Assembly: GCA_964536205.1 (NCBI GenBank)
Contig: CAZHVT010000004.1
Coordinates: forward strand, 17,960-81,959
DNA: 64,000 nt
Direction: 5' to 3'
Source: an uncultured Gammaproteobacteria bacterium
GTDB lineage: Bacteria > Patescibacteriota > Patescibacteriia > Magasanikbacterales > GCA-002688135
The notes below the pieces were generated by a model. That model searched no databases. It saw only the letters and a program-made list of their open reading frames with translations, and was not told where the DNA came from. A program made the position numbers and the translations under genes. Positions within the stretch are counted from its first letter, which is position 1, and the number at the start of each line of letters is the position of its first letter. Shown in pieces: positions 17,660 through 51,845 of the stretch.

Positions 17660-17732
17660 ACTTTACCATAGACAAACCCACAAAAATCAACTAAAGTAAT
17701 CAGAGTTCATTGAAACAAAAGAGGTGCAACAT

Positions 17733-18395
17733 ATGAAAGGACAAGCTATGGAACATGATGAAGGTACGCAAGAAGCTGATGAAGAAGTCAAAGGCTTTGA
17801 TTTCTTGAGCGACATGATCGGACAAGAAGTAATGGAAACCGCGCTAAGAAATGGCCTATCCTTAAGTGATTTTCGTAAACTAGGTGAAGATGCGCTGATG
17901 CAACAAATTGCCCCAACAATCAAAGCATACACAACAGGAGCTGGCGATGCTGATATGGAGAATCAAGTAAAAGCAGAGATAGAAAAAAACATCATCGATT
18001 GCGATGCGAGTCCATTCATTCACGACGGGTGGTCCGTCTATCCTGGAAATCACATCAAGGGTGGTCAACTCGAGTGGGATCCGGGGAAAATCGAGCTCTG
18101 GCTCTCGCAAGAACAGAAAAACAGTTCGATTCCAGGACACGAGCTGCGCAAGCAGCTAGTAGAACAGAAACCACTGAATGCCAACGTGCTGGACTACCTG
18201 CTAGCCAACCCTCACCTCATTCCCGAGAAGTGGAAGGGTCAGTACGTCTTCTTCTGGGGAACCATTTACCGCGGCCGGCGCGGCAACCTGCTTGTCCGTT
18301 GTCTTTGCTGGAGTAGTGATGCCTGGCACGGGCACTATCACTGGCTGGGCAATCGCTGGACCGACGGCCATCCGGCGTTGGTGCTCGCACCGTAA
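17733..18395 (+). CDS. hypothetical protein; the 3' half is GC-rich, unlike flanking DNA
   Basis: RBS AAGAGG sits 8 nt before ATG 17733. Inserted between secY and adk. Composition shifts at about 18040. Confidence 0.45.
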   Translation: MKGQAMEHDEGTQEADEEVKGFDFLSDMIGQEVMETALRNGLSLSDFRKLGEDALMQQIAPTIKAYTTGAGDADMENQVKAEIEKNIIDCDASPFIHDGWSVYPGNHIKGGQLEWDPGKIELWLSQEQKNSSIPGHELRKQLVEQKPLNANVLDYLLANPHLIPEKWKGQYVFFWGTIYRGRRGNLLVRCLCWSSDAWHGHYHWLGNRWTDGHPALVLAP

Positions 18396-29049: not shown

Positions 29050-29265
29050 ATGCGGCGAATGTTGCGAAAAATAAAGCGCGTTATCCAGCACTGGCTGGAC
29101 GAGCAACGTGAGGCAATTTTCTTTTTCCGATACCTGTGGGTACGGACGAAAGTGGATTGCAGAATGGGTCTGATCGAGGAGTTTCTCTTCGACCCAAGCG
29201 CGTTGAAACAGCGCTACTTCGAAGAACGAAAGTTCGAGCAATCGCTGGCAGGTCGCTGGCGTTAG
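29050..29265 (+). CDS. hypothetical protein (island gene 1)
   Basis: 71 aa with a GGAG RBS. First ORF after the composition jump. Confidence 0.35.
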   Translation: MRRMLRKIKRVIQHWLDEQREAIFFFRYLWVRTKVDCRMGLIEEFLFDPSALKQRYFEERKFEQSLAGRWR

Positions 29266-29316
29266 CTTTCATATTGAGCCTGTTCCCGGGCTAAAAGAAA
29301 GGGGAGTGGAGCGAGC

Positions 29317-29628
29317 ATGAGTAAGAATTCCGTAGTCGTAGGTGATGGCATCACAGTGACGCGCGCGCAGTTGAAGCGCGCGCAGAAGCAGTATGCCAGA
29401 CGCAAAGGTGGCTTGCCGGGTTTCTGGCAGACAGCACTGGACCTCATGGGTCCGGAGCCGGAGCGGGTCAAGAAGACTCGTTCTGCCAAGCCGCGTCGGA
29501 AGCCGGTTGATACTGGTTTCTCGGAGGGTTACCTCGCTCAGCACAAGGCCGAGATCGGCCTGTCGAGTAAGGATCGGCGCCGCGAGCGTCGGGCCGCATC
29601 GAAGCGGTCTCGTCATCGTGACGAATAA
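29317..29628 (+). CDS. hypothetical highly basic protein (island gene 2)
   Basis: 103 aa. RBS GGGGAGTGGAG. K/R-rich C-terminal half (KKTRSAKPRRKP...RRRERRAASKRSRHRDE). Confidence 0.45.
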   Translation: MSKNSVVVGDGITVTRAQLKRAQKQYARRKGGLPGFWQTALDLMGPEPERVKKTRSAKPRRKPVDTGFSEGYLAQHKAEIGLSSKDRRRERRAASKRSRHRDE

Positions 29629-29800
29629 TCCTCGGCTTCGGCCAACCCCGAATCTACAAACTCTGGACTGTTGTGAAACAGACCACATAACCCGCGAGCA
29701 AGACCAAGGTCAAGTTCGCGGATCTAACTCGGTTGCTCAACAAAGTGTTGAGAGACCGTGAGGATCATTAACCCCATCCCTGGGGCAAAAGAATAAGGGC

Positions 29801-29869
29801 ATGGAGATGCAAATGTTGACGTTTGGCATTATCCAGCTGGCCGTTTTGGTCGGCGCCGTCATCCTGTAA
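29801..29869 (+). CDS. candidate 22-aa hydrophobic peptide (MEMQMLTFGIIQLAVLVGAVIL)
   Basis: Follows leader copy L1 (29757 CGTGAGGAT...AAAAGAATAAGGGC). Followed by hairpin 29893-29922. Confidence 0.3.
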   Translation: MEMQMLTFGIIQLAVLVGAVIL

Positions 29870-30002
29870 GGGTGGCTGGCGGGGGTGTCGCGGTTTACGA
29901 ACCTAGCGACACCTCTCCAACTTGAAAGCTTAATCATTCGATTCAGCTTTCGTGAGGAGACACACTCAAAGACCTTTGAAAAACACATAGTCAGGAGAGG
30001 TA

Positions 30003-30257
30003 ATGAACCCGGAATTGATGAATTTGTTGGTCGTACTGACCATGTGCTGGTTCTGCCTCGGCGCGATTGCTCACATGGTGGGTGGTCAAAAGTGGGCGAA
30101 CAAAGTCTGGAGATGGCCGTTCAAGATGATCGGAAAAGCCATCCGTTGGGTGTTGGTCCAGATTCGAGCTTTCATTCGTGAGGCTCTGGTCGGACTCTGG
30201 AATGCACTGCGAGGACGCAGAGGTAACCAAAACAACAACCGCGGCAACAACCCATGA
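30003..30257 (+). CDS. hypothetical 84-aa membrane protein: one TM helix, then an amphipathic basic helix and an RG/N-rich tail
   Basis: RBS AGGAGAGG. Leader CGTGAGGAG at 29951. Paired hairpins downstream at 30283-30355. Confidence 0.45.
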   Translation: MNPELMNLLVVLTMCWFCLGAIAHMVGGQKWANKVWRWPFKMIGKAIRWVLVQIRAFIREALVGLWNALRGRRGNQNNNRGNNP

Positions 30258-30383
30258 CTCAACCCTAACCCGCGAGCAGCATATGCGTCGCGGCAAGCCC
30301 TGTACCCAACGTGGTACAGGGATCCAAATCGATTTCGCAGTCCTGAATTGCGAAGTCACGAGGATTCATTCACAGGAGGAGAG

Positions 30384-30572
30384 ATGGAGAGTTTTCTGGG
30401 CAATGTCTGGGCGCTAGTCTGCCTTTGGGCTGGTCTGTGCATCTTCTATGCCATGATCAGCGCAGTCGTGATGTTCAAATACTCGGCGTGGGACATGTTC
30501 TTGCTGCCATTCAAGGCGATCATCATGCTGTGCAAAGGTCTCGGGAAACTCGTTCCCAGGACGTTCACCTAA
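30384..30572 (+). CDS. hypothetical 62-aa two-TM peptide
   Basis: RBS AGGAGGAGAG sits directly before ATG 30384. The upstream in-frame Met in the track lacks an RBS. Confidence 0.45.
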   Translation: MESFLGNVWALVCLWAGLCIFYAMISAVVMFKYSAWDMFLLPFKAIIMLCKGLGKLVPRTFT

Positions 30573-30617
30573 GAAGGGTGAGATCAAGAGTCAGGTGAAA
30601 ACACAATAAAAGGAGAA

Positions 30618-30683
30618 ATGATGGGAATCGAACTCATTCTGGGTCAGGCGCTTGTCTGCATCATGTACGCAGCTTTCCGCTAG
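30618..30683 (+). CDS. candidate 21-aa hydrophobic peptide (MMGIELILGQALVCIMYAAFR)
   Basis: RBS AAAAGGAGAA. Followed immediately by paired-hairpin module T1. Confidence 0.3.
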   Translation: MMGIELILGQALVCIMYAAFR

Positions 30684-30697
30684 GAGAGGTGTGTATC

Positions 30698-30750
30698 CGA
30701 GGATCTACGGATCCTCACAACGCAGCCGCGAACCAACATGGTTCGCGGCT
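30698..30750 (+). repeat. paired-hairpin module T1 (GAGGATC-tacg-GATCCTC, then CCGCGAACC-aacat-GGTTCGCGG)
   Basis: Two adjacent perfect stems. About 85% identical to T2 at 30966-31014. Confidence 0.6.
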
Positions 30751-30846
30751 CCAACTCGATCTCTGAGCACAGTATTCGTTCAGACTCGTGAGGAGATCTA
30801 CTGGTTACACCTAACCCCGGGTGGAAAGAAATGGGGAGGAGAGAGA

Positions 30847-30948
30847 ATGGACTGGCCAGGGATTCATCGAGACATGACGATTACAGCGATTTCGCTGGTA
30901 ACAATCATCTTTCTGTTCTGGGCATGCAGCGGCTCAAGCCTCTGCTAG
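30847..30948 (+). CDS. candidate 33-aa hydrophobic peptide (MDWPGIHRDMTITAISLVTIIFLFWACSGSSLC)
   Basis: Leader L2 (30787 CGTGAGGAG...ACCCCGGGTGGAAAGAAATGGGG), RBS GGAGGAGAGAG, followed by module T2. Confidence 0.35.
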   Translation: MDWPGIHRDMTITAISLVTIIFLFWACSGSSLC

Positions 30949-30965
30949 AAATTAACAACACATAT

Positions 30966-31014
30966 CGAGGGTCTACGGATCCTCGCGCAGTCCCGAACCA
31001 ACGCGGTTCGGGGC
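30966..31014 (+). repeat. paired-hairpin module T2
   Basis: GAGGGTC-tacg-GATCCTC, then CCCGAACC-aacgc-GGTTCGGGG. Confidence 0.6.
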
Positions 31015-31109
31015 TCCAAATCGGAAAGATTAATGAAAATTAAGCATCCGTGAGGAGTTACAAATAAAAGCCCTGACCCGGGGTAAAAGAAATGGGTTTT
31101 AGGAGGCAC

Positions 31110-31490
31110 ATGATCTTTTGGATCAGTCGTCACGAGCTGTCCCCGGCGCAGACCAAGGCTATCTTGGATCTGCACGGAGACGTTGAGGTAAAGCGACAGG
31201 AAGTCGTTTTCGATGAGGTGGGTGGTTTGAAATCGCTCATCGAGTCGGTAGATGAAGGAGACTTCGTCTACGCCGTGGCCGGTGCGCCGCACTACTTGGC
31301 AGCCGCTTTGAGTGGTTGTGAGTTCGGTGTTTTTCTCAATCACCCGGGTCGGCGTGCCAATGGCACGTTCGGTCTTCATTGCGTATTTCACGTGGTCGGT
31401 GGAGAGCTGGTAAAGGTCTGGGAAAACCCAGATCCGAACAGCGATGAGGGAGAGCGTCTCGATGTCACAGTCGAGCGTCCCATTCTTTAA
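31110..31490 (+). CDS. hypothetical 126-aa soluble protein (last island gene)
   Basis: Leader L3 (31049 CGTGAGGAG...GACCCGGGGTAAAAGAAATGGG), RBS AGGAGG. The ATG inside AAAGAAATGGG (31092) is in frame and is an alternative start. Confidence 0.45.
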   Translation: MIFWISRHELSPAQTKAILDLHGDVEVKRQEVVFDEVGGLKSLIESVDEGDFVYAVAGAPHYLAAALSGCEFGVFLNHPGRRANGTFGLHCVFHVVGGELVKVWENPDPNSDEGERLDVTVERPIL

Positions 31491-31568
31491 ACCAGAGGGC
31501 GTGCTATGGCACGTCACTCCAACTAAAATTTCAATGTATTGAAGTTTTTGAGGAGAAATGGGAAGAGC

Positions 31569-31596: not shown

Positions 31597-31616
31597 TTTG
31601 CAGAAAAGCTTCTGAC

Positions 31617-31690
31617 TACCAGGGGGGAGAATTGAACTCCCGACCTCAGGCTTATGAGTCCTGCGCTCTAACCTTCTGAGCTACCCTGGT
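31617..31690 (-). tRNA. tRNA with anticodon CAU (elongator Met or Ile2-type)
   Basis: Minus-strand cloverleaf ACCAGGG-TA-GCTCAGAAGGTTAGAGC-G-CAGGA-CTCATAA-GCCTG-AGGTC-GGGAG-TTCAATT-CTCCC-CCCTGGT-A. CCA not encoded. Confidence 0.75.
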
Positions 31691-31746
31691 AGTCAATAGC
31701 TTTATGATTGCTAACGGCGATAGTATAAGAGAAATTGAAATGATCG

Positions 31747-34139: not shown

Positions 34140-35009
34140 ATGGCATTAGGAAAAGGATTGAACGCACTTATTGGATCAAAGACATCCGGAAGCAAAAAGG
34201 CTTCAAAAAAACCGACGACCAAGGTTGAAGAAAAACAGTCGGTACAAGAGGGGAGTCTTATGATTCCTGTCTCGCAGATTCATGCAAACCCAGATCAGCC
34301 GCGTAAACAGTTCGGCATAGATGAATTACAAGATTTAGTACAATCAATTGAAAAGCATGGAATTTTGCAACCGCTTGTTGTGAAAGAGGAAGAGGATGGG
34401 ATGTATCAAATTATCGCAGGAGAGAGACGTTTTCGTGCATCACAGATGATCGGTATGACACGAGTGCCATGTACAGTAAAACCGGTTGATAAAAAACAGG
34501 AGCTAGAAATTTCTCTCGTTGAGAACATTCAGAGAAAAAATTTGAATCCACTTGAAGAAGCTTTTGCATATCAACGATTAACAGACGAATTTGGAATGAC
34601 GCAGGCAGAGGTTGGATCGCAGGTTGGTAAAAGTAGATCGTATGTTGCAAATACAATTCGATTGTTAGATTTGCCACAGGATGTTCAAAAAGGATTGAGT
34701 GAAGGAAAAATTTCACATACAAAGGCGCGCGCATTGTTAGGCTTGCCAACTATCAGACAACAACTAAAAGCGTTCTACGATATTGCAGGGGATAAGCAAA
34801 TTTCAACACGCGCAACAGAACAGATGGTACGAAAGCATCGAACAAAACTGGGGCGACGAGATCCATTACTAAACGCACTTGAAGAACGTCTCCGTGAAAA
34901 ATTGGGCACGAAAGTGTATGTGACAAATACAAAAGGAAAGGGAAGTGTGAAGATTGATTTCTTTTCAGATGAGGAGATGAATGGGGTTGTGCAGAAGATT
35001 TTGGGGTAG
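34140..35009 (+). CDS. parB: chromosome partitioning protein ParB/Spo0J
   Basis: ParB box GILQPLVV...IIAGERRFRAS, HTH, C-terminal dimerisation region. Confidence 0.9.
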   Translation: MALGKGLNALIGSKTSGSKKASKKPTTKVEEKQSVQEGSLMIPVSQIHANPDQPRKQFGIDELQDLVQSIEKHGILQPLVVKEEEDGMYQIIAGERRFRASQMIGMTRVPCTVKPVDKKQELEISLVENIQRKNLNPLEEAFAYQRLTDEFGMTQAEVGSQVGKSRSYVANTIRLLDLPQDVQKGLSEGKISHTKARALLGLPTIRQQLKAFYDIAGDKQISTRATEQMVRKHRTKLGRRDPLLNALEERLREKLGTKVYVTNTKGKGSVKIDFFSDEEMNGVVQKILG

Positions 35010-35027
35010 GTTGAGATTGAAATTCAA

Positions 35028-35050
35028 AGAGCGGTTAAGCCGCTTTTTTG
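35028..35050 (+). terminator. terminator after parB
   Basis: AGCGG-ttaa-GCCGCT-TTTTTG. Confidence 0.5.
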
Positions 35051-35193
35051 GTTTGCGATGTGCCTCGCCTCTTCAGCCAGGTACATGCGTAGTTTCTAAA
35101 AAAGCGTGTAGCACGTCATTCAAGCTTTCTACATAAGCCTGCTGGGCTTTGATGCATTGTAAACGATCACGAAATCGAAGATTTCTGTCGTTA

Positions 35194-35249
35194 ACAAAAA
35201 AAGACTTCGATATATTCCTCAACCGTAGTTGATAAAAATATCGAAGTCT
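35194..35249 (-). terminator. terminator for the GC-rich minus-strand gene
   Basis: AGACTTCGATAT...ATATCGAAGTCT 12-bp stem, followed on the minus strand by T7. Confidence 0.5.
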
Positions 35250-35260
35250 GGGGGGGTGGA

Positions 35261-36883
35261 CTAGCGACTACCCAATCCGGAAAGGAATGAGCTGTGTGGC
35301 ACAGGGCCATCCGGTCGCGGCGGGTTCATGACATCGTCACAGCGCTTCAGGCTGTGGCGAAACATCTTTGTGGAGCATGCAACACCAGCGCATACGCCAT
35401 CAGCGATGCATTCGGGAGCCATTCGTCGGCTGTCGAATGCGATCAGAACCAGGTCCTTCAGCTCCTCCCACGGAATCGTGGTTGGCTTGATGTTCAATGC
35501 AGAGCGCGTACCGTTGGCAAGCAGTGGTATGCGCGCATCGTAGAACCAGTTTTCAGCACCCGGAATCTGACCTTCAGCAATCAGCTGATGCTTGTTGTAG
35601 CCGTAGAGAGTCGTCGTTCCATGTCGACGTTCAGCCATGCGGATCATCCGCGTAAGCTGATCGAGATAGGTTTTACGATTCGTATCGCTGTTGATCCGGC
35701 CGACGTTGAGCTTCTTGAGAACGCGGAAATTCGTCAAAATCACGACATGACCAGTCTCCGGATTTCGGATGACAATGATCGCAGCTTGATCGAACTTCCT
35801 TGCGCATCGGTCGAGACCGAACGTTGTCGTTTCGAGAAATACGATCTTCATGGTCTTGCGACCTACAGGAATGTCGACGAGTTCTTTGTTCGCGTCATAC
35901 TCAGCGCGGCCAACCGTGAAGAAGTGCTGTTGCTCAACATGCTTCATGATGACGAGCATCTGCATCTGAACAGGTCGATCGGTACGCCACAAATCACTAT
36001 GCTCCGACAGACTGCCAGGTTCGGCAAACATCAGTCGGGGAAACATCGCGAACTCGTAAAGCTCGATCTTGTTCTCTCGGACTCTCTGCTCGAGATGCCG
36101 ACAGTACGTGAGCAGCTGCTCCATGGCCGGATTGCTTTTGCAATCCAACTCTTGCGCCAGCGCATCGGGAGTTGCAGAGTAGAACGTCTGACCTTCCTCT
36201 CCGAACTGCTCCTTCATGAACTGCATCACCACCTCATATACAGAAGTGGGGTGAGCAAGGTCTGCTGGGGCAACATGTGCCGGCCAACGCATGCGTCCGA
36301 TCACGAGCTTCTCGAGGAAGTCATAGATCGGGTCATCAGGCGTATTGATGTTCTGCATCATCCGCACGAGCTGTGAAAGCTCGAGTGGTCCGCAGTACAT
36401 GCGCTTGTGGCGTGCATCTTCTTCGTCGACGTACTCCACAAAATCCTCGAGCTGCGCAGGAAGATTATCGCCAAGCGCATCGGCAATCAGCCGAATGCTA
36501 GAGGTGTTGACCTCACGTCCGAGTTCCGGATCCGGATGCTCGTCGAATCGACCACCACCAGTACCCACGAACAGAATCCCGCAATGTTCCTCGAGCTCAT
36601 CGGCAGTCAAATTGCAGATCCGAATATCATCGAATTTCGGATACACACCCAGGTCATTGCGCCCGGCGTCCGCATCTTTCCAGTCGCAGTAACCCTGCTC
36701 CTCGAGCAGATCTCGAATCTCCGGATTGTCCCAACTCAATGTGCCAGTAGCATCAATGAGATGATGAGGAGTGGTAAGATCCACACCCATGCTTTCGCCA
36801 AAGTGACGAAGCAAGATCAGAGCACAAAGCTCATCCAGATGTGGCTGTCGATGCATCACAATTACTCGTTTATCATTTTTCAA
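35261..36883 (-). CDS. GC-rich 540-aa protein; N-terminal motifs resemble MYG1/UPF0160 metal-dependent hydrolases (tentative)
   Basis: VIVMHRQPHLDELCALILL and ILFVGTGGGRFDEH resemble the H-x-x-H-x-DE...VGG...DHH signature. About 58% GC against an AT-rich genome. Long antisense ORFs are composition artefacts. Confidence 0.4.
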   Translation of the reverse strand: MKNDKRVIVMHRQPHLDELCALILLRHFGESMGVDLTTPHHLIDATGTLSWDNPEIRDLLEEQGYCDWKDADAGRNDLGVYPKFDDIRICNLTADELEEHCGILFVGTGGGRFDEHPDPELGREVNTSSIRLIADALGDNLPAQLEDFVEYVDEEDARHKRMYCGPLELSQLVRMMQNINTPDDPIYDFLEKLVIGRMRWPAHVAPADLAHPTSVYEVVMQFMKEQFGEEGQTFYSATPDALAQELDCKSNPAMEQLLTYCRHLEQRVRENKIELYEFAMFPRLMFAEPGSLSEHSDLWRTDRPVQMQMLVIMKHVEQQHFFTVGRAEYDANKELVDIPVGRKTMKIVFLETTTFGLDRCARKFDQAAIIVIRNPETGHVVILTNFRVLKKLNVGRINSDTNRKTYLDQLTRMIRMAERRHGTTTLYGYNKHQLIAEGQIPGAENWFYDARIPLLANGTRSALNIKPTTIPWEELKDLVLIAFDSRRMAPECIADGVCAGVACSTKMFRHSLKRCDDVMNPPRPDGPVPHSSFLSGLGSR

Positions 36884-36937
36884 TGAAACCTCCTATGAAA
36901 TTTAGTTTACTTTTTGTTTTGATGAAAGATCGTTCGA

Positions 36938-36956
36938 AGATGACACAATGTCATCT
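36938..36956. promoter_or_regulatory. perfect palindrome AGATGACA-caa-TGTCATCT about 55 nt upstream of the 35261..36883 gene; candidate operator
   Basis: 8-bp inverted repeat in the AT-rich upstream region of a GC-rich gene. Confidence 0.35.
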
Positions 36957-37124
36957 CCACACAACTATCCTCAAAAACAAATCTGATATAACATTATTTT
37001 ACACTAAATTAACCAAAAATAATACCACAAAAACAGCCTTTTGTCAACCCCTACGAACATCTTGTTGCTCTACTAAAATAAGTGGTATTTATGGCATTTT
37101 ATGGGTAAGTGAGAGGTATCGAGA

Positions 37125-50483: not shown

Positions 50484-51701
50484 TTAGCCCGTCACTGCTT
50501 CGCCGATAGCGAGCGCGGCTTCACGCGCAAGAGCATCAGCTTTGACAGCTGCTGCTTTCTTTTTTTCTTTCTTCCTTGTCTTGCCTTTGACTGCCTGCAT
50601 CTCGAGCTTCTTAAGTCGCTCGTGTGTCGCGTTCCGTTCCTCAATCATTGCATCAAGCGTCGCAAGGTCTTCTGGAGTAGCTTCGCTAGATTTCAGTTCA
50701 TACTGAACATCTCGCAGAACTGCATTGATGACCCGATTATACACACGCAAGCCTTCCCGATGCTTGGTAGAGGTAATCCGTGTCGAAGCTCGACAGATTG
50801 TGAGCGCTTCATCCAAGTAAGCTCGCAGAGAACGCCGTTGAATCTCAATCCGCTTCAGCCGATCAATCTCCACCTTCTGCTCATCAATGACTTTAGCGCC
50901 AGCAGCAACCGAAGCATGAAGATCCTGAATGGTATTTCGAGATTCGCTGATGAACGAACCAACATCTTGCATCGGCAGATCTGCCTTACGTTCAGCCATC
51001 AAATTGAGTGCTTCTTCAACATTCAGCCAAAACAAATCGCCGAGCGTCGTTTTGAGCTGAACACTAATTTGGAACAGCTGAATTGGATTGCCGATCTTAA
51101 CATCAGCAATAGCGTAAAACATCTGTGTTTTAACATGCGGCATGTGGCAACGAGATGTCATGTTGGGACCGCCCAAAGGAACAGCAAGTGTAGCAACAAT
51201 CATATCACGACTTTCCGTGCTAGATTGGATGACTTCACCATTGCGGTGCGAAAAGTGTACGCGTTTGAAATCATGCGTAACGCTGAATGGCTTGAATACA
51301 CCCTTAGAATTAAAGAGTGCACGTCGATTAACGATAAACCAGAGAAAATCTCCGTTGTTCCACCGCTGCACGAGTAGCACAAAACCGATCCTGTTTCTAT
51401 ATTTCTGCGCACGGATGAATCGGAACGGCCAGACATCATCTAGATCAGCGTCGCCGAACAACATAAGTTTGATGAAGTAGATCACCCATCCCACAAACAG
51501 CGAAACAATCAGTCCGCCAAAAGTGTAGATCAGATAATCAGCTTGCGTCAATGATCCATCGAATCGATGTGCAAAGCATAAATATGCCAGCACAGCAAGC
51601 GTGAGCCCAAGTGACATCCCAAGCCAATACTTGAGACGACCATATGGAATAGCGCGAAAATCTGCAATCGCGCTTCTAAAGTCTCCGTTTCTGTGTTCCA
51701 T
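50484..51701 (-). CDS. hypothetical membrane protein with C-terminal coiled-coil, K-rich tail
   Basis: RBS AAGGAGA 5 nt before the internal Met (MEHRNGDF). Two N-terminal TM helices. GC moderately elevated. The antisense track ORF 50622..51377 is likely spurious. Confidence 0.5.
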   Translation of the reverse strand: MEHRNGDFRSAIADFRAIPYGRLKYWLGMSLGLTLAVLAYLCFAHRFDGSLTQADYLIYTFGGLIVSLFVGWVIYFIKLMLFGDADLDDVWPFRFIRAQKYRNRIGFVLLVQRWNNGDFLWFIVNRRALFNSKGVFKPFSVTHDFKRVHFSHRNGEVIQSSTESRDMIVATLAVPLGGPNMTSRCHMPHVKTQMFYAIADVKIGNPIQLFQISVQLKTTLGDLFWLNVEEALNLMAERKADLPMQDVGSFISESRNTIQDLHASVAAGAKVIDEQKVEIDRLKRIEIQRRSLRAYLDEALTICRASTRITSTKHREGLRVYNRVINAVLRDVQYELKSSEATPEDLATLDAMIEERNATHERLKKLEMQAVKGKTRKKEKKKAAAVKADALAREAALAIGEAVTG

Positions 51702-51845
51702 GACGTTCTCCTTAACTGCCTCACAATCCGTCAAGTCATGAGGGAGCGATGATAACGGATCAGTCCAATAAGTTCGCGGCCTCAACGAGTACGTTGAGGC
51801 GGCTCTTCATATCAAACCATCGGTCACATCTGGTTTTAAAAAACA

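What the first reader, a model, noticed from the sequence alone, without database searches (positions are those of the whole stretch)
35050..36890. Second GC-rich islet: a single 540-aa gene (tentatively MYG1/UPF0160-like) wearing host-type AT-rich signals
The 35261..36883 minus-strand ORF is about 58% GC, and both strands are ORF-rich, a hallmark of foreign high-GC DNA. Its flanks are host-like: an AT-rich terminator (AGACTTCGATAT...ATATCGAAGTCT plus T7) downstream, and an AT-rich upstream region containing a perfect palindrome AGATGACA-caa-TGTCATCT (36938-36956). This looks like a horizontally acquired gene that has been domesticated. N-terminal motifs (HRQPHLDELCALILL; VGTGGGRFDEH) resemble the MYG1/UPF0160 metal-dependent hydrolase signature, but the C-terminal 200 aa are unassigned. 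It sits between parB and relA, close to the tRNA cluster and the first island, so this 8 kb stretch looks like an acquisition hotspot.
Basis: partly seen in the sequence, partly recalled or inferred. Interest (0 to 1): 0.55.

Follow-up and report, generated by a model that had tools for sequence, protein, structure and literature searches.

The report
Conserved GC-rich MYG1-like nuclease gene
This GC-rich gene in an AT-rich candidate-phyla-radiation bacterium is not a recent import: it is an old, vertically inherited, fast-evolving distant relative of the MYG1/DHH exonucleases, and its high GC content and unusually folded mRNA appear to be actively maintained, so base composition alone misleads about its origin.

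Summary
The 540-aa ORF (35261..36883, minus strand) is real, but it is 53% GC, not 58% (GC3 0.60 against about 0.35 in neighbours). No Pfam, NCBIfam, PHROG or PADLOC model matches it. A profile search found more than 700 unannotated relatives, almost all in Patescibacteria/CPR and WOR-3.

The "foreign island" reading fails. Six related lineages carry the gene downstream of relA, next to parB where that flank is held. They share an invariant promoter, a covarying 5'UTR hairpin and a long terminator. Synonymous divergence equals that of the flanks, and W->S and S->W changes are balanced. All six keep about +10 GC points.

The pattern extends across AT-rich CPR hosts: the homolog is usually the most GC-rich gene in its locus (median +0.10). 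Its coding sequence folds more stably than synonymous shuffles (z about -3 to -8), whereas most neighbouring genes do not.

Best reading: an ancestral nuclease-type gene whose transcript is selected to be GC-rich and highly structured. The reason for that selection is not established.

The parts
37019..37047 (-). Sigma-70-type promoter: -35 TTGACA (37047-37042), 17-nt spacer with TG of an extended -10 (37027-37026), -10 TATTAT (37024-37019). The transcription start is inferred near 37012.
   Evidence: 11 of 12 consensus matches. The core TTGACAAA..GG...TTTTT.TG.TAT.AT is invariant in six lineages whose synonymous sites are saturated. It is unique in the window, with 0 matches in 100 shuffles.
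36884..37011 (-). 5' untranslated leader of about 128 nt (inferred from the promoter), containing the conserved hairpin and the ribosome-binding site AGGAGG (36894-36889).
   Evidence: Sequence. The alignment of six upstream regions shows conserved blocks after the -10.
36929..36965 (-). Leader hairpin.
   Evidence: All six orthologous leaders fold into a 12-16 bp hairpin at the same place, with different upper-stem sequences and G-U pairs. Folding z is -2.4 to -7.7, with at most 2 of 200 shuffles as stable. RNAalifold on a MAFFT alignment failed because of misalignment.
35264..36883 (-). Coding sequence of a 540-aa DHH/DHHA1-superfamily protein distantly related to MYG1. TTG start at 36883-36881, TAG stop at 35263-35261.
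36338..36883 (-). N-terminal DHH-like catalytic domain (about residues 1-182), with nearly invariant H11, H15, D17, E18, G107, D114, H116 and D156. Residues 69-86 are an insertion not seen in the four orthologs aligned with it, and residues 71-90 are modelled with low confidence.
   Evidence: Conservation across 102 sequences. hhalign to MYG1 covers this part. pLDDT profile. Alignment A1.
35888..36337 (-). Helical middle region (about residues 183-332). It is much longer than in the roughly 350-aa core family members.
   Evidence: Secondary structure of the model. Length comparison with core members of 320-370 aa.
35429..35887 (-). C-terminal DHHA1-like domain (about residues 333-485), with nearly invariant G378, R415, E418, W446, N457, G458 and T468.
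35324..35422 (-). Four-cysteine motif (C492, C498, C503, C515) followed by a basic tail. It is probably a metal (Zn or Fe-S) site that binds nucleic acid (inference).
   Evidence: The four cysteines are invariant in the five-sequence clade alignment. The family consensus is CxxGxC...CxxYxxGLxRCRxxR.
35195..35249 (-). Intrinsic terminator: a hairpin of about 20 bp (arms 35249-35228 and 35223-35202) capped by a C-UACG-G tetraloop, then U7 (35201-35195).
   Evidence: Inverted repeat I1. The same architecture and tetraloop occur in L001, L002 and L005 with covarying stems, and L004 and L012 have other long hairpins followed by U-runs.

Best explanation
The ORF encodes a divergent two-domain DHH/DHHA1 metal-dependent phosphoesterase. 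It belongs to a large, unannotated family confined almost entirely to Patescibacteria/CPR and WOR-3, and that family is a distant relative of the MYG1 3'-5' RNA exonucleases. It most likely acts on RNA ends or short nucleotides as an exonuclease or nanoRNase-type phosphodiesterase, with a C-terminal four-cysteine and basic tail that helps bind nucleic acid. This function is inferred.

The gene is not a recent import. It is an ancestral, vertically inherited, single-gene transcription unit in the parAB-relA neighbourhood. It has its own invariant consensus promoter, a structured leader, a weak TTG start behind a strong Shine-Dalgarno sequence, and a long tetraloop-capped terminator.

Its GC-richness is a property of the gene itself and sits at compositional equilibrium. 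The family shares it in AT-rich hosts, and it comes with more local mRNA secondary structure than protein sequence, codon usage and dinucleotide content can explain. The most likely mechanism is selection at the nucleic-acid level for a strongly folded, nuclease-resistant transcript that may also be translated slowly. In an AT-rich genome that can only be achieved by raising GC. Why this transcript must be so folded is inference; possibilities include protection from the RNase it encodes or from the cell's AU-directed RNases, or autoregulation.
For: Protein:
- The model has pLDDT 88.5 and pTM 0.88.
- hhalign of the family against MYG1 gives 88.5% probability and E 2.7e-6, with the motifs in register.
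- A metal-ligand-like set of residues is nearly invariant.

Vertical descent:
- The gene lies downstream of relA, with parB following where that flank is held, in the related lineages.
- dS between the window and L001 is 1.39 for X, 1.31 for relA and 1.04 for topA.
- The promoter is invariant.
- More distant 350-aa members also lie beside parAB.
- No copies exist in phage, plasmid or viral collections.

Maintained composition:
- Orthologs are 47-55% GC, against 37-45% in their flanking DNA, even though synonymous sites are saturated.
- Polarised synonymous changes are 18 W->S against 20 S->W. Decay towards host composition predicts a ratio of about 2.5 (binomial P about 0.01).
- Across 27 loci in AT-rich hosts the median offset is +0.103, and 16 of 27 are at or above +0.09. 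Only 2% of 148 neighbouring ORFs reach that (Mann-Whitney P = 3e-10).
- Of 43 loci, 30 have an offset above +0.02 and 1 below -0.02. The offset grows as host GC falls (rho = -0.54).
- Islet boundaries coincide with the ORF.

Structure:
- Under three kinds of synonymous shuffle the window gene gives z = -5.6, -4.1 and -6.1.
- With the dinucleotide-preserving shuffle, 17 of 20 CPR family genes have z <= -2.5, against 4 of 44 control genes.
- WOR-3 members, in hosts at 63-65% GC, show no excess.
- The first 120 nt of the coding sequence are not over-structured.
- The 5' hairpin and the long 3' hairpin are conserved by covariation.
Against: - No biochemical data exist for any family member.
- The catalytic DHH is DEH here, and the MYG1 'GGH' histidine is replaced by N-G-S/T (motif roles from PMC6582341), so substrate and even activity are uncertain.
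- The excess folding is diffuse, appears equally on the antisense strand, and is not conserved in position among orthologs (SCI 0.05 against 0.37 for relA). It could therefore reflect a DNA-level or mutational process rather than RNA selection.
- A few ordinary genes also show it (EF-Tu z = -3.2).
- Some family members in AT-rich hosts have host-like GC (L024, L030, L050, L055), so the pressure is not universal.
- The family statistics are not corrected for phylogenetic non-independence.
- The polarisation test uses parsimony near saturation and only 38 changes.
- An ancient transfer into the clade's ancestor cannot be excluded.
Confidence: 0.55

Rival explanations
1. One reading: a horizontally acquired high-GC gene, recent or not yet ameliorated, that has been fitted with host promoter and terminator signals and sits in an acquisition hotspot.
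For: - The gene is about 11 GC points above its flanks, with codon usage inverted relative to the host (A3 0.126 against 0.34).
- It is a lineage-restricted family with no Pfam model.
- A second GC-rich islet and tRNAs lie within 6 kb.
- Two family members lie below host GC (L052, L024), so some transfer among lineages is possible.
Against: - The gene lies downstream of relA, with the same promoter, in all related lineages whose upstream flank is held.
- Its dS equals that of its flanks.
- W->S and S->W synonymous changes are balanced.
- The offset is nearly always positive (30 loci against 1) and scales with host AT-richness. Random-direction transfer does not predict this.
- More distant homologs also sit beside parAB.
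- There are no integrase or repeats at the boundaries.
- There are no phage, plasmid or viral homologs.
- Island 1 is also collinear in L005.
Confidence: 0.08
2. GC-biased gene conversion, or frequent homologous replacement. On this view the gene is a recombination hot spot, for example under diversifying selection in naturally competent CPR cells. Repeated conversion tracts raise GC at all codon positions and speed up protein evolution.
For: - GC is raised at first positions as well as third (0.62 against 0.52).
- The protein evolves 3-7 times faster than its neighbours (dN 0.13 against 0.03-0.04; 39-79% identity where relA is 83-97%).
- dprA lies in the same neighbourhood.
- Islet boundaries are sharp.
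Against: - Conversion does not predict that synonymous codons are arranged to increase base pairing (z -3 to -8 against shuffles that keep composition).
- dS is not higher than in the flanks for the closest pair.
- dN/dS is 0.09, which means purifying rather than diversifying selection overall.
- The same offset arises in at least two other genomic contexts (isc operon neighbours).
Confidence: 0.15
3. Translational throttling by codon choice. On this view the gene deliberately uses host-rare G/C-ending codons (NNG instead of NNA), together with a TTG start. This keeps a potentially harmful nuclease at a low, low-noise level despite a strong promoter, or makes its translation depend on the tRNA-modification state. 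GC-richness and structure are then secondary.
For: - Codon usage is close to the inverse of the host's. It is also the opposite of ribosomal-protein and EF genes, whose GC3 is 0.25-0.31.
- The start is non-ATG in 5 of 6 lineages.
- The promoter is consensus-like.
Against: - It does not explain the raised GC1 and the shift from Lys to Arg.
- It does not explain the excess pairing relative to shuffles that keep the same codon usage.
- The tRNA complement of the genome is unknown, so 'rare' is inferred from usage only.
Confidence: 0.15
4. The composition reflects a second gene or RNA encoded on the opposite strand, or a conserved structured RNA embedded in the ORF.
For: - There is a 360-aa antisense ORF.
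- Antisense folding excess is as strong as sense.
Against: - The antisense ORF length is what codon usage predicts (P = 0.39), and it is not conserved.
- No Rfam family matches.
- There is no consensus structure among orthologs (SCI 0.05).
Confidence: 0.03

Closest known systems
MYG1 / UPF0160 exonucleases (Pfam PF03690; human MYG1, solved as PDB 24ah and related entries)
   Same: - The N-terminal catalytic domain aligns profile-to-profile at 88.5% probability and E 2.7e-6.
- The motifs are in register: T-H-x-x-P-H-L-D-E with T-H-N-G-T-F-H-C-D-E, G-G-G-R-F-D-E-H-P with G-G-E-Y-D-P-x-R-H-R-Y-D-H-H-Q, and E-D-A with D-A-x-D-N-G.
- The two-domain DHH-type architecture is shared.
- MYG1 is a 3'-5' RNA exonuclease whose DHH motif is catalytic (PMC6582341).
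   Different: - The Pfam model does not match this protein or 10 relatives.
- Only the N-terminal third aligns.
- DHH is DEH.
- The His of the C-terminal GGH (His344 in MYG1) is S/T after N-G.
- The spacing between the two N-terminal His is one residue shorter.
- This protein has an extra helical region and a four-cysteine basic tail.
- The family is restricted to CPR and WOR-3 rather than being widespread in eukaryotes.
Bacterial and archaeal DHH/DHHA1 phosphoesterases (NrnA, PggH, GdpP catalytic domain, TM1595, PAP phosphatase, NrN, RecJ/Cdc45)
   Different: - There is no sequence-level match to the Pfam DHH or DHHA1 models, and sequence identity is 7-13%.
- The canonical motifs DxD, D, DHH and GGGH are replaced by H-x3-H-x-DE, DEH, D and NGS.
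- There is a large helical insertion between the domains.
Classical genomic islands / compositionally atypical horizontally acquired genes
   Same: Base composition and codon usage are atypical relative to the flanking genes, and the islet is a single gene with sharp edges.
   Different: - The gene is GC-richer than the host, whereas acquired genes are typically AT-richer (general knowledge).
- It is present in all related lineages sampled, downstream of relA.
- Its dS equals that of the flanks and its composition is at equilibrium.
- There are no mobility genes and no mobile-element homologs.
Coding sequences selected for mRNA secondary structure (for example highly expressed genes such as EF-Tu in this window)
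   Same: Folding is more stable than dinucleotide-preserving synonymous shuffles predict. EF-Tu gives z = -3.2 and this gene gives -4.1.
   Different: - Here the effect is coupled to a 10-23 point GC elevation and to codon usage opposite to that of highly expressed genes.
- It is a property of one gene family across many AT-rich CPR genomes.

Membership tests
MYG1 / UPF0160 (PF03690) | Match to the Pfam PF03690 model at or above the gathering score | tested here: not met
   There is no PF03690 hit at E<=1 for the window protein and none at E<=0.01 for 10 family relatives. The same scan gives 458.7 bits for human MYG1.
MYG1 / UPF0160 (PF03690) | Detectable homology to MYG1 by profile-profile comparison | tested here: met
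   hhalign of A2 against A3 gives 88.5% probability and E 2.7e-6 over 147 columns, N-terminal domain only. Against a single MYG1 sequence it gives 34.8% and E 4e-4.
MYG1 / UPF0160 (PF03690) | Catalytic Asp-His-His (DHH, residues 106-108 of human MYG1) | tested here: not met
   The aligned triplet is D114-E115-H116 (DEH). D114 and H116 are nearly invariant in 102 sequences. The role of the motif is taken from PMC6582341.
MYG1 / UPF0160 (PF03690) | C-terminal histidine linked to RNA selectivity (His344, in the G-G-H context) | tested here: inconclusive
   The C-terminal domains do not align by hhalign. The conserved family motif is L-L-N-G-S/T (N457, G458) with no His. Equivalence of position was not shown.
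MYG1 / UPF0160 (PF03690) | 3'-5' exonuclease activity with RNA as preferred substrate | not testable with these tools
   Requires purified protein and labelled substrates.
DHH/DHHA1 phosphoesterase superfamily | Two-domain DHH plus DHHA1 fold | tested here: met
DHH/DHHA1 phosphoesterase superfamily | Conserved acidic and histidine metal-binding motifs in the N-terminal domain | tested here: inconclusive
   H11, H15, D17, E18, D114, H116 and D156 are nearly invariant, but the motifs are non-canonical. Their clustering in the model could not be inspected with the tools.
DHH/DHHA1 phosphoesterase superfamily | Match to Pfam DHH (PF01368) or DHHA1 (PF02272) | tested here: not met
   No hit at E<=1.
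Horizontally acquired genomic islet | Atypical base composition and codon usage | tested here: met
   GC is 0.531 against about 0.41, GC3 is 0.60 against about 0.35, and A3 is 0.126 against 0.34.
Horizontally acquired genomic islet | Patchy presence among close relatives, or divergence discordant with the flanks | tested here: not met
   The gene is present at the same locus in all related lineages found. dS is 1.39 against 1.31 and 1.04 for the flanks.
Horizontally acquired genomic islet | Composition decaying towards that of the host (amelioration) | tested here: not met
   There are 18 W->S against 20 S->W polarised synonymous changes, where decay predicts a ratio of about 2.5 (P about 0.01). 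The offset is kept in lineages with saturated dS. Small counts and parsimony are caveats.
Horizontally acquired genomic islet | Mobility signatures (integrase, flanking direct repeats, tRNA-adjacent insertion, homologs on mobile elements) | tested here: not met
   The flanks are parB and relA. There are no boundary repeats. There are no homologs in viral contigs, phages or plasmids.

The most novel reading that the evidence does not exclude
AT-rich CPR genomes contain a class of ancient, fast-evolving genes that are mostly unannotated. This MYG1-like family is the clearest case. Island 1 of this window and a 706-aa gene in L027 are possible further ones. Their transcripts are under selection to be GC-rich and globally hyper-structured. 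This would be either a self-protection or autoregulation device for RNases and other RNA-active proteins, or a sign that the RNA has a second, non-coding role. If so, 'GC islets' in these genomes mark a mode of post-transcriptional biology rather than foreign DNA.
Probability: 0.2. Interest if true: 0.8.

Novelty: new variant of a known kind. Interest (0 to 1): 0.6.

Why it matters
1. It assigns a fold and a probable chemistry (a DHH/DHHA1 phosphoesterase distantly related to MYG1) to a family of several hundred unannotated CPR and WOR-3 proteins that Pfam and NCBIfam do not cover.
2. It is a clear counter-example to the routine inference that atypical composition means horizontal transfer. 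Here a vertically inherited gene holds a 10-23 point GC excess at apparent equilibrium across a wide radiation.
3. The link between GC excess and excess mRNA folding gives a concrete, testable hypothesis for gene-specific composition in reduced AT-rich genomes.
4. It identifies a conserved promoter-leader-terminator architecture that could be used to study gene expression in uncultivated Patescibacteria.

Tried and rejected
- **Antisense or overlapping gene:** rejected. ORF lengths match codon-shuffle expectation and are not conserved.
- **Embedded conserved RNA:** none found. Rfam finds only three tRNAs in the window, and the structure conservation index over a codon alignment of six orthologs is 0.05.
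- **Defence or phage origin:** no meaningful PADLOC or PHROG hit, and no homolog in IMG/VR, INPHARED phages or PLSDB plasmids.
- **High-expression codon bias:** rejected. Ribosomal-protein and EF genes have GC3 of 0.25-0.31.
- **Palindrome as a repeated operator:** it occurs once, and its sequence is not conserved in orthologs while its pairing is.
- **Internal repeated palindromic elements in the ORF:** none.
- **Sequence search of the PDB** with the protein and with the family profile: nothing.
- **Technical dead ends:**
  - The afdb50 fold library was unavailable.
  - The 102-sequence alignment was too diverse for pattern-based locus search.
  - RNAalifold on the MAFFT-aligned leaders gave no structure because loops of different length were misaligned.
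  - The first AlphaFold model, from 5 sequences, was poor (pLDDT 62).
  - MYG1 structures (24ah and others) did not appear among the reported fold-search matches, so no direct structural comparison with MYG1 was obtained.
- **Literature:** searches found no description of this CPR family or of GC-rich structured genes in Patescibacteria.
Full report
**What is in the sequence.**
The minus-strand ORF 35261..36883 (540 aa) exists as described. It starts at TTG (36883-36881), five bases after AGGAGG. Its GC content is 53.1%, not about 58%. GC by codon position is 0.62/0.38/0.60, whereas parA, parB, relA and topA are 40-42% GC with GC3 of 0.34-0.38, and the whole window is 42.1%. The GC step coincides with the ORF, and the spacer upstream is only 30-35% GC. 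The codon usage is nearly the inverse of the host's. A-ending codons drop from 34% to 12.6%, TTA from 22% of Leu codons to zero, and Lys falls while Arg rises. Ribosomal-protein, EF-G and EF-Tu genes in the window have GC3 of 0.25-0.31, so this is not the bias of highly expressed genes. Long ORFs on the opposite strand are real, but the protein sequence plus codon usage fully explains them (shuffle P = 0.39), and they are not conserved in orthologs.

**Signals around the gene.**
- Upstream lies a near-consensus sigma-70 promoter: TTGACA, 17 nt, TGgTATTAT (37047-37019, 11 of 12 matches).
- relA ends with its own hairpin-plus-T terminator at 37175-37155, so the gene is a separate transcription unit with a leader of about 128 nt.
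- Downstream, the stop codon is followed by a stem of about 20 bp (arms of 22 nt, 86% complementary), closed by a UACG tetraloop and followed by seven U. This is much longer than the parB and relA terminators.

**What the protein is.**
- No model in Pfam, NCBIfam, PHROGs or PADLOC matches it, and no PDB sequence does.
- A word-indexed search of 5.8 billion proteins found only five sequences, the query itself among them.
- An exhaustive profile search found 766 cluster representatives at E<=1e-3 and 398 at E<=1e-10. Most are 320-370 aa.
- Ten of these relatives were checked in Pfam and eight in NCBIfam. None has a match, and none carries a name.
- A scan of one genome per species returned 45 loci. 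Those that carry a phylum label are almost all Patescibacteria/CPR (Parcubacteria/Paceibacterota, Saccharibacteria, Magasanikbacteria and others) or candidate division WOR-3.
- In an alignment of 102 members the nearly invariant residues are H11, H15, D17, E18, G107, D114, H116, D156, G378, R415, E418, W446, N457, G458 and T468. A four-cysteine motif with a basic tail lies at the C-terminus.
- With this alignment AlphaFold gives a confident model (pLDDT 88.5, pTM 0.88).
- A vertebrate MYG1 alignment was built from a recalled human sequence that I first verified against PF03690 (458.7 bits). It aligns to the family profile with 88.5% probability and E 2.7e-6 over 147 N-terminal columns, motif to motif.

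However, the protein is not a member of PF03690:
- The Pfam model does not match.
- Only the N-terminal domain aligns.
- The catalytic DHH (PMC6582341) reads DEH.
- No counterpart of the MYG1 His344 is evident.

The "unassigned" C-terminal 200 aa are a DHHA1-like domain plus the cysteine tail. The middle of the protein (about residues 183-332) is a helical region much longer than in the 350-aa core family.

**It is not a recent acquisition.**
- Every close relative whose upstream flank is held has the gene downstream of relA. parB and parA follow it in four lineages. One deeper lineage (L012) has two extra genes between relA and the gene, and lacks parB downstream.
- Protein identity to the window copy is 79, 47, 42, 41 and 40%. 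For the same genomes relA is 83-97% identical, topA 72-94% and parB 63-88%.
- For the closest pair, dS is 1.39 for the gene, 1.31 for relA and 1.04 for topA, so the gene and its flanks have the same age. dN/dS is 0.09 against 0.02-0.035, so the gene is under purifying selection but evolves about four times faster. All deeper comparisons are saturated at synonymous sites.
- The promoter core is invariant in six lineages.
- The start codon is TTG in four lineages, GTG in one and ATG in one.
- All six leaders carry a 12-16 bp hairpin at the same place, with different upper-stem sequences and G-U pairs. This points to an RNA element rather than a protein-binding DNA palindrome.
- Four lineages share the terminator with its UACG tetraloop and covarying stems.
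- More distant 350-aa members also lie next to parAB (L024, L026, L029, L030, L033), two of them with relA nearby. Another clade lies next to Rrf2-IscS-NifU.
- There are no homologs in IMG/VR viral contigs, phage genomes or plasmids.
- The "first island" (29.1-31.5 kb) is also collinear with the relative L005, at only 26-45% amino-acid similarity.

The 8-kb stretch is therefore not an acquisition hotspot. It holds two old, fast-evolving, GC-rich segments.

**The composition is maintained, not left over.**
- All orthologs keep GC of 47-55% (52-55% in five lineages, 47% in the more AT-rich L012) and GC3 of 0.47-0.61, against 37-45% in their flanking DNA and flank GC3 of 0.26-0.41. The offset is about +0.09 to +0.11 in each, including a lineage whose genome is more AT-rich.
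- With synonymous sites hit more than once per site, a relic of foreign composition should have decayed.
- Third-position changes in the two closest lineages, polarised with an outgroup, give 18 W->S and 20 S->W. The flanks give 51/41 and 76/61. Decay from GC3 of about 0.57 to 0.35 predicts a ratio of about 2.5 (binomial P about 0.01, range 0.003-0.08 depending on assumptions). Counts are small and parsimony is imperfect at this divergence, but the result fits equilibrium.
- The pattern is family-wide. In 27 loci from hosts below 50% GC the homolog is +0.103 above its flanks (median), and 16 of 27 are at or above +0.09. Only 2% of 148 neighbouring ORFs of at least 200 aa reach that (Mann-Whitney P = 3e-10). 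In most of these loci it is the most GC-rich long ORF.
- The islets are single genes with sharp edges, for example 0.55-0.59 against 0.28-0.39 in L025.
- Of 43 loci, 30 have offsets above +0.02 and one below -0.02. The offset grows as the host becomes more AT-rich (rho = -0.54, P = 2e-4).
- Offsets occur on many separate deep branches of a rough family tree.
- Random-direction transfer would give symmetric offsets.
- A few members are at host-like GC (L024, L030, L050, L055), so the force is not universal.

**A nucleic-acid-level signal.**
I compared the mean folding energy of 120-nt windows of each coding sequence with synonymous shuffles that keep the protein.
- Three schemes were used: free permutation of synonymous codons, a dinucleotide-preserving scheme (third bases permuted only among codons with the same first two bases, amino acid and following base), and permutation within 40-codon blocks.
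- The window gene gives z = -5.6, -4.1 and -6.1 under the three schemes. relA, parB, parA and topA give +0.4 to -1.3.
- With the dinucleotide-preserving scheme, 17 of 20 CPR family genes have z <= -2.5 (range -1.1 to -8.2). Only 4 of 44 control genes do. The four are EF-Tu (-3.2), an unannotated ORF at 50484-51785, another GC-rich unannotated islet gene in L027 (-6.1), and one gene in L036.
- The four WOR-3 members, in genomes of 63-65% GC, show no excess (+0.9 to -1.9). This fits the idea that a certain folding stability is required and comes for free in GC-rich hosts.
- The first 120 nt of the coding sequence are not over-structured.
- The excess is diffuse, equally visible on the antisense strand, and not conserved in position among orthologs (structure conservation index 0.05). 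What is conserved is foldedness, not a particular fold. An RNA-level reading is therefore favoured but not proven.

**How it most likely works.**
- Shown: the fold and superfamily, remote MYG1 homology, vertical descent, the conserved expression signals, persistent GC excess, and excess folding potential.
- Inferred: the protein is a metal-dependent exonuclease or oligonucleotide phosphodiesterase acting on RNA.
- Inferred: its transcript is selected to be GC-rich and tightly folded from a strong promoter, with a protective leader hairpin and a long 3' hairpin. Translation is limited by a TTG start and host-atypical codons.
- Speculative: the reason is protection from the encoded or other AU-directed RNases, or autoregulation through the leader hairpin.

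The rivals are ancient transfer without amelioration, GC-biased gene conversion at a recombination hot spot, and pure codon-based throttling. Each explains part of the data. None explains the pairing excess at fixed composition together with the equal dS.

**Verdict.**

Noticed in passing
window 29100-31500: The 'first island' is 50-61% GC and next to tRNA-Met (31616-31691). It contains only small ORFs without Pfam hits and no Rfam match. It is collinear with relative L005 (about 15.0-17.65 kb) at only 26-45% amino-acid similarity, so it is also ancestral and fast-evolving. Two of its ORFs (29317-29628 and 31092-31490) fold far better than synonymous shuffles (z -3.8 and -5.8).
   Followed up: partly
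window 17724-18395; 293-1285; 50484-51785: These are further GC-rich ORFs (GC 0.47-0.51, GC3 0.47-0.53) with no Pfam match. One is wedged between secY and adk in the ribosomal-protein operon region. The ORF at 50484-51785 also shows excess folding (z -2.9); the other two do not.
   Followed up: partly
L027:7962-10082: In a Saccharibacteria-labelled MAG, a second GC-rich islet near the family gene encodes a 706-aa protein with no Pfam hit. It has the same strong folding excess (z -6.1). GC-rich, hyper-structured, unannotated genes may therefore be a recurring class in AT-rich CPR genomes.
   Followed up: partly
window about 35000-36900: Cumulative GC skew peaks here and gene orientation switches from plus to minus (parAB converge on the relA-topA block). 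This would fit a replication terminus, or simply transcription-driven skew. It is unusual for a parAB locus.
   Followed up: no
window 35150-35192 (minus strand), between the gene's terminator and the parB terminator: A second hairpin (GUUAACGACAGAAAUCUUCGAUUUCGUGAUCGUUUAC) is conserved in sequence and pairing in relative L001. Its function is unknown; it may be a back-up terminator or a small RNA element.
   Followed up: no
L001:9971-10000 and L005:9926-10000: The database proteins P0002 and P0005 have mis-called starts. The true ORFs begin at upstream TTG codons and include the conserved H-x3-P-H-L-D-E motif that the deposited sequence of P0005 lacks.
   Followed up: yes
L009, L022, L025, L028, L032: In another clade the family gene lies next to IscS, with NifU also adjacent in four of the five loci and Rrf2 annotated in L009. 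This Fe-S cluster assembly operon is co-directional in L009 and on the opposite strand in the other four. Together with the four conserved C-terminal cysteines, this hints at an Fe-S or Zn site.
   Followed up: partly
window 36626-36679 (residues 69-86 of the protein): An 18-residue insertion (WKDADAGRNDLGVYPKFD) is present in the window copy and absent from the four orthologs aligned with it. Residues 71-90 of the model have low confidence (pLDDT about 52).
   Followed up: no
L012, L013, L025, L028, L044: Several MAG records that carry CPR-type loci (small genes, parAB-relA-topA synteny shared with a Parcubacteria MAG) are titled 'uncultured Gammaproteobacteria bacterium'. These titles are probably placeholder or mistaken taxonomy labels.
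   Followed up: no
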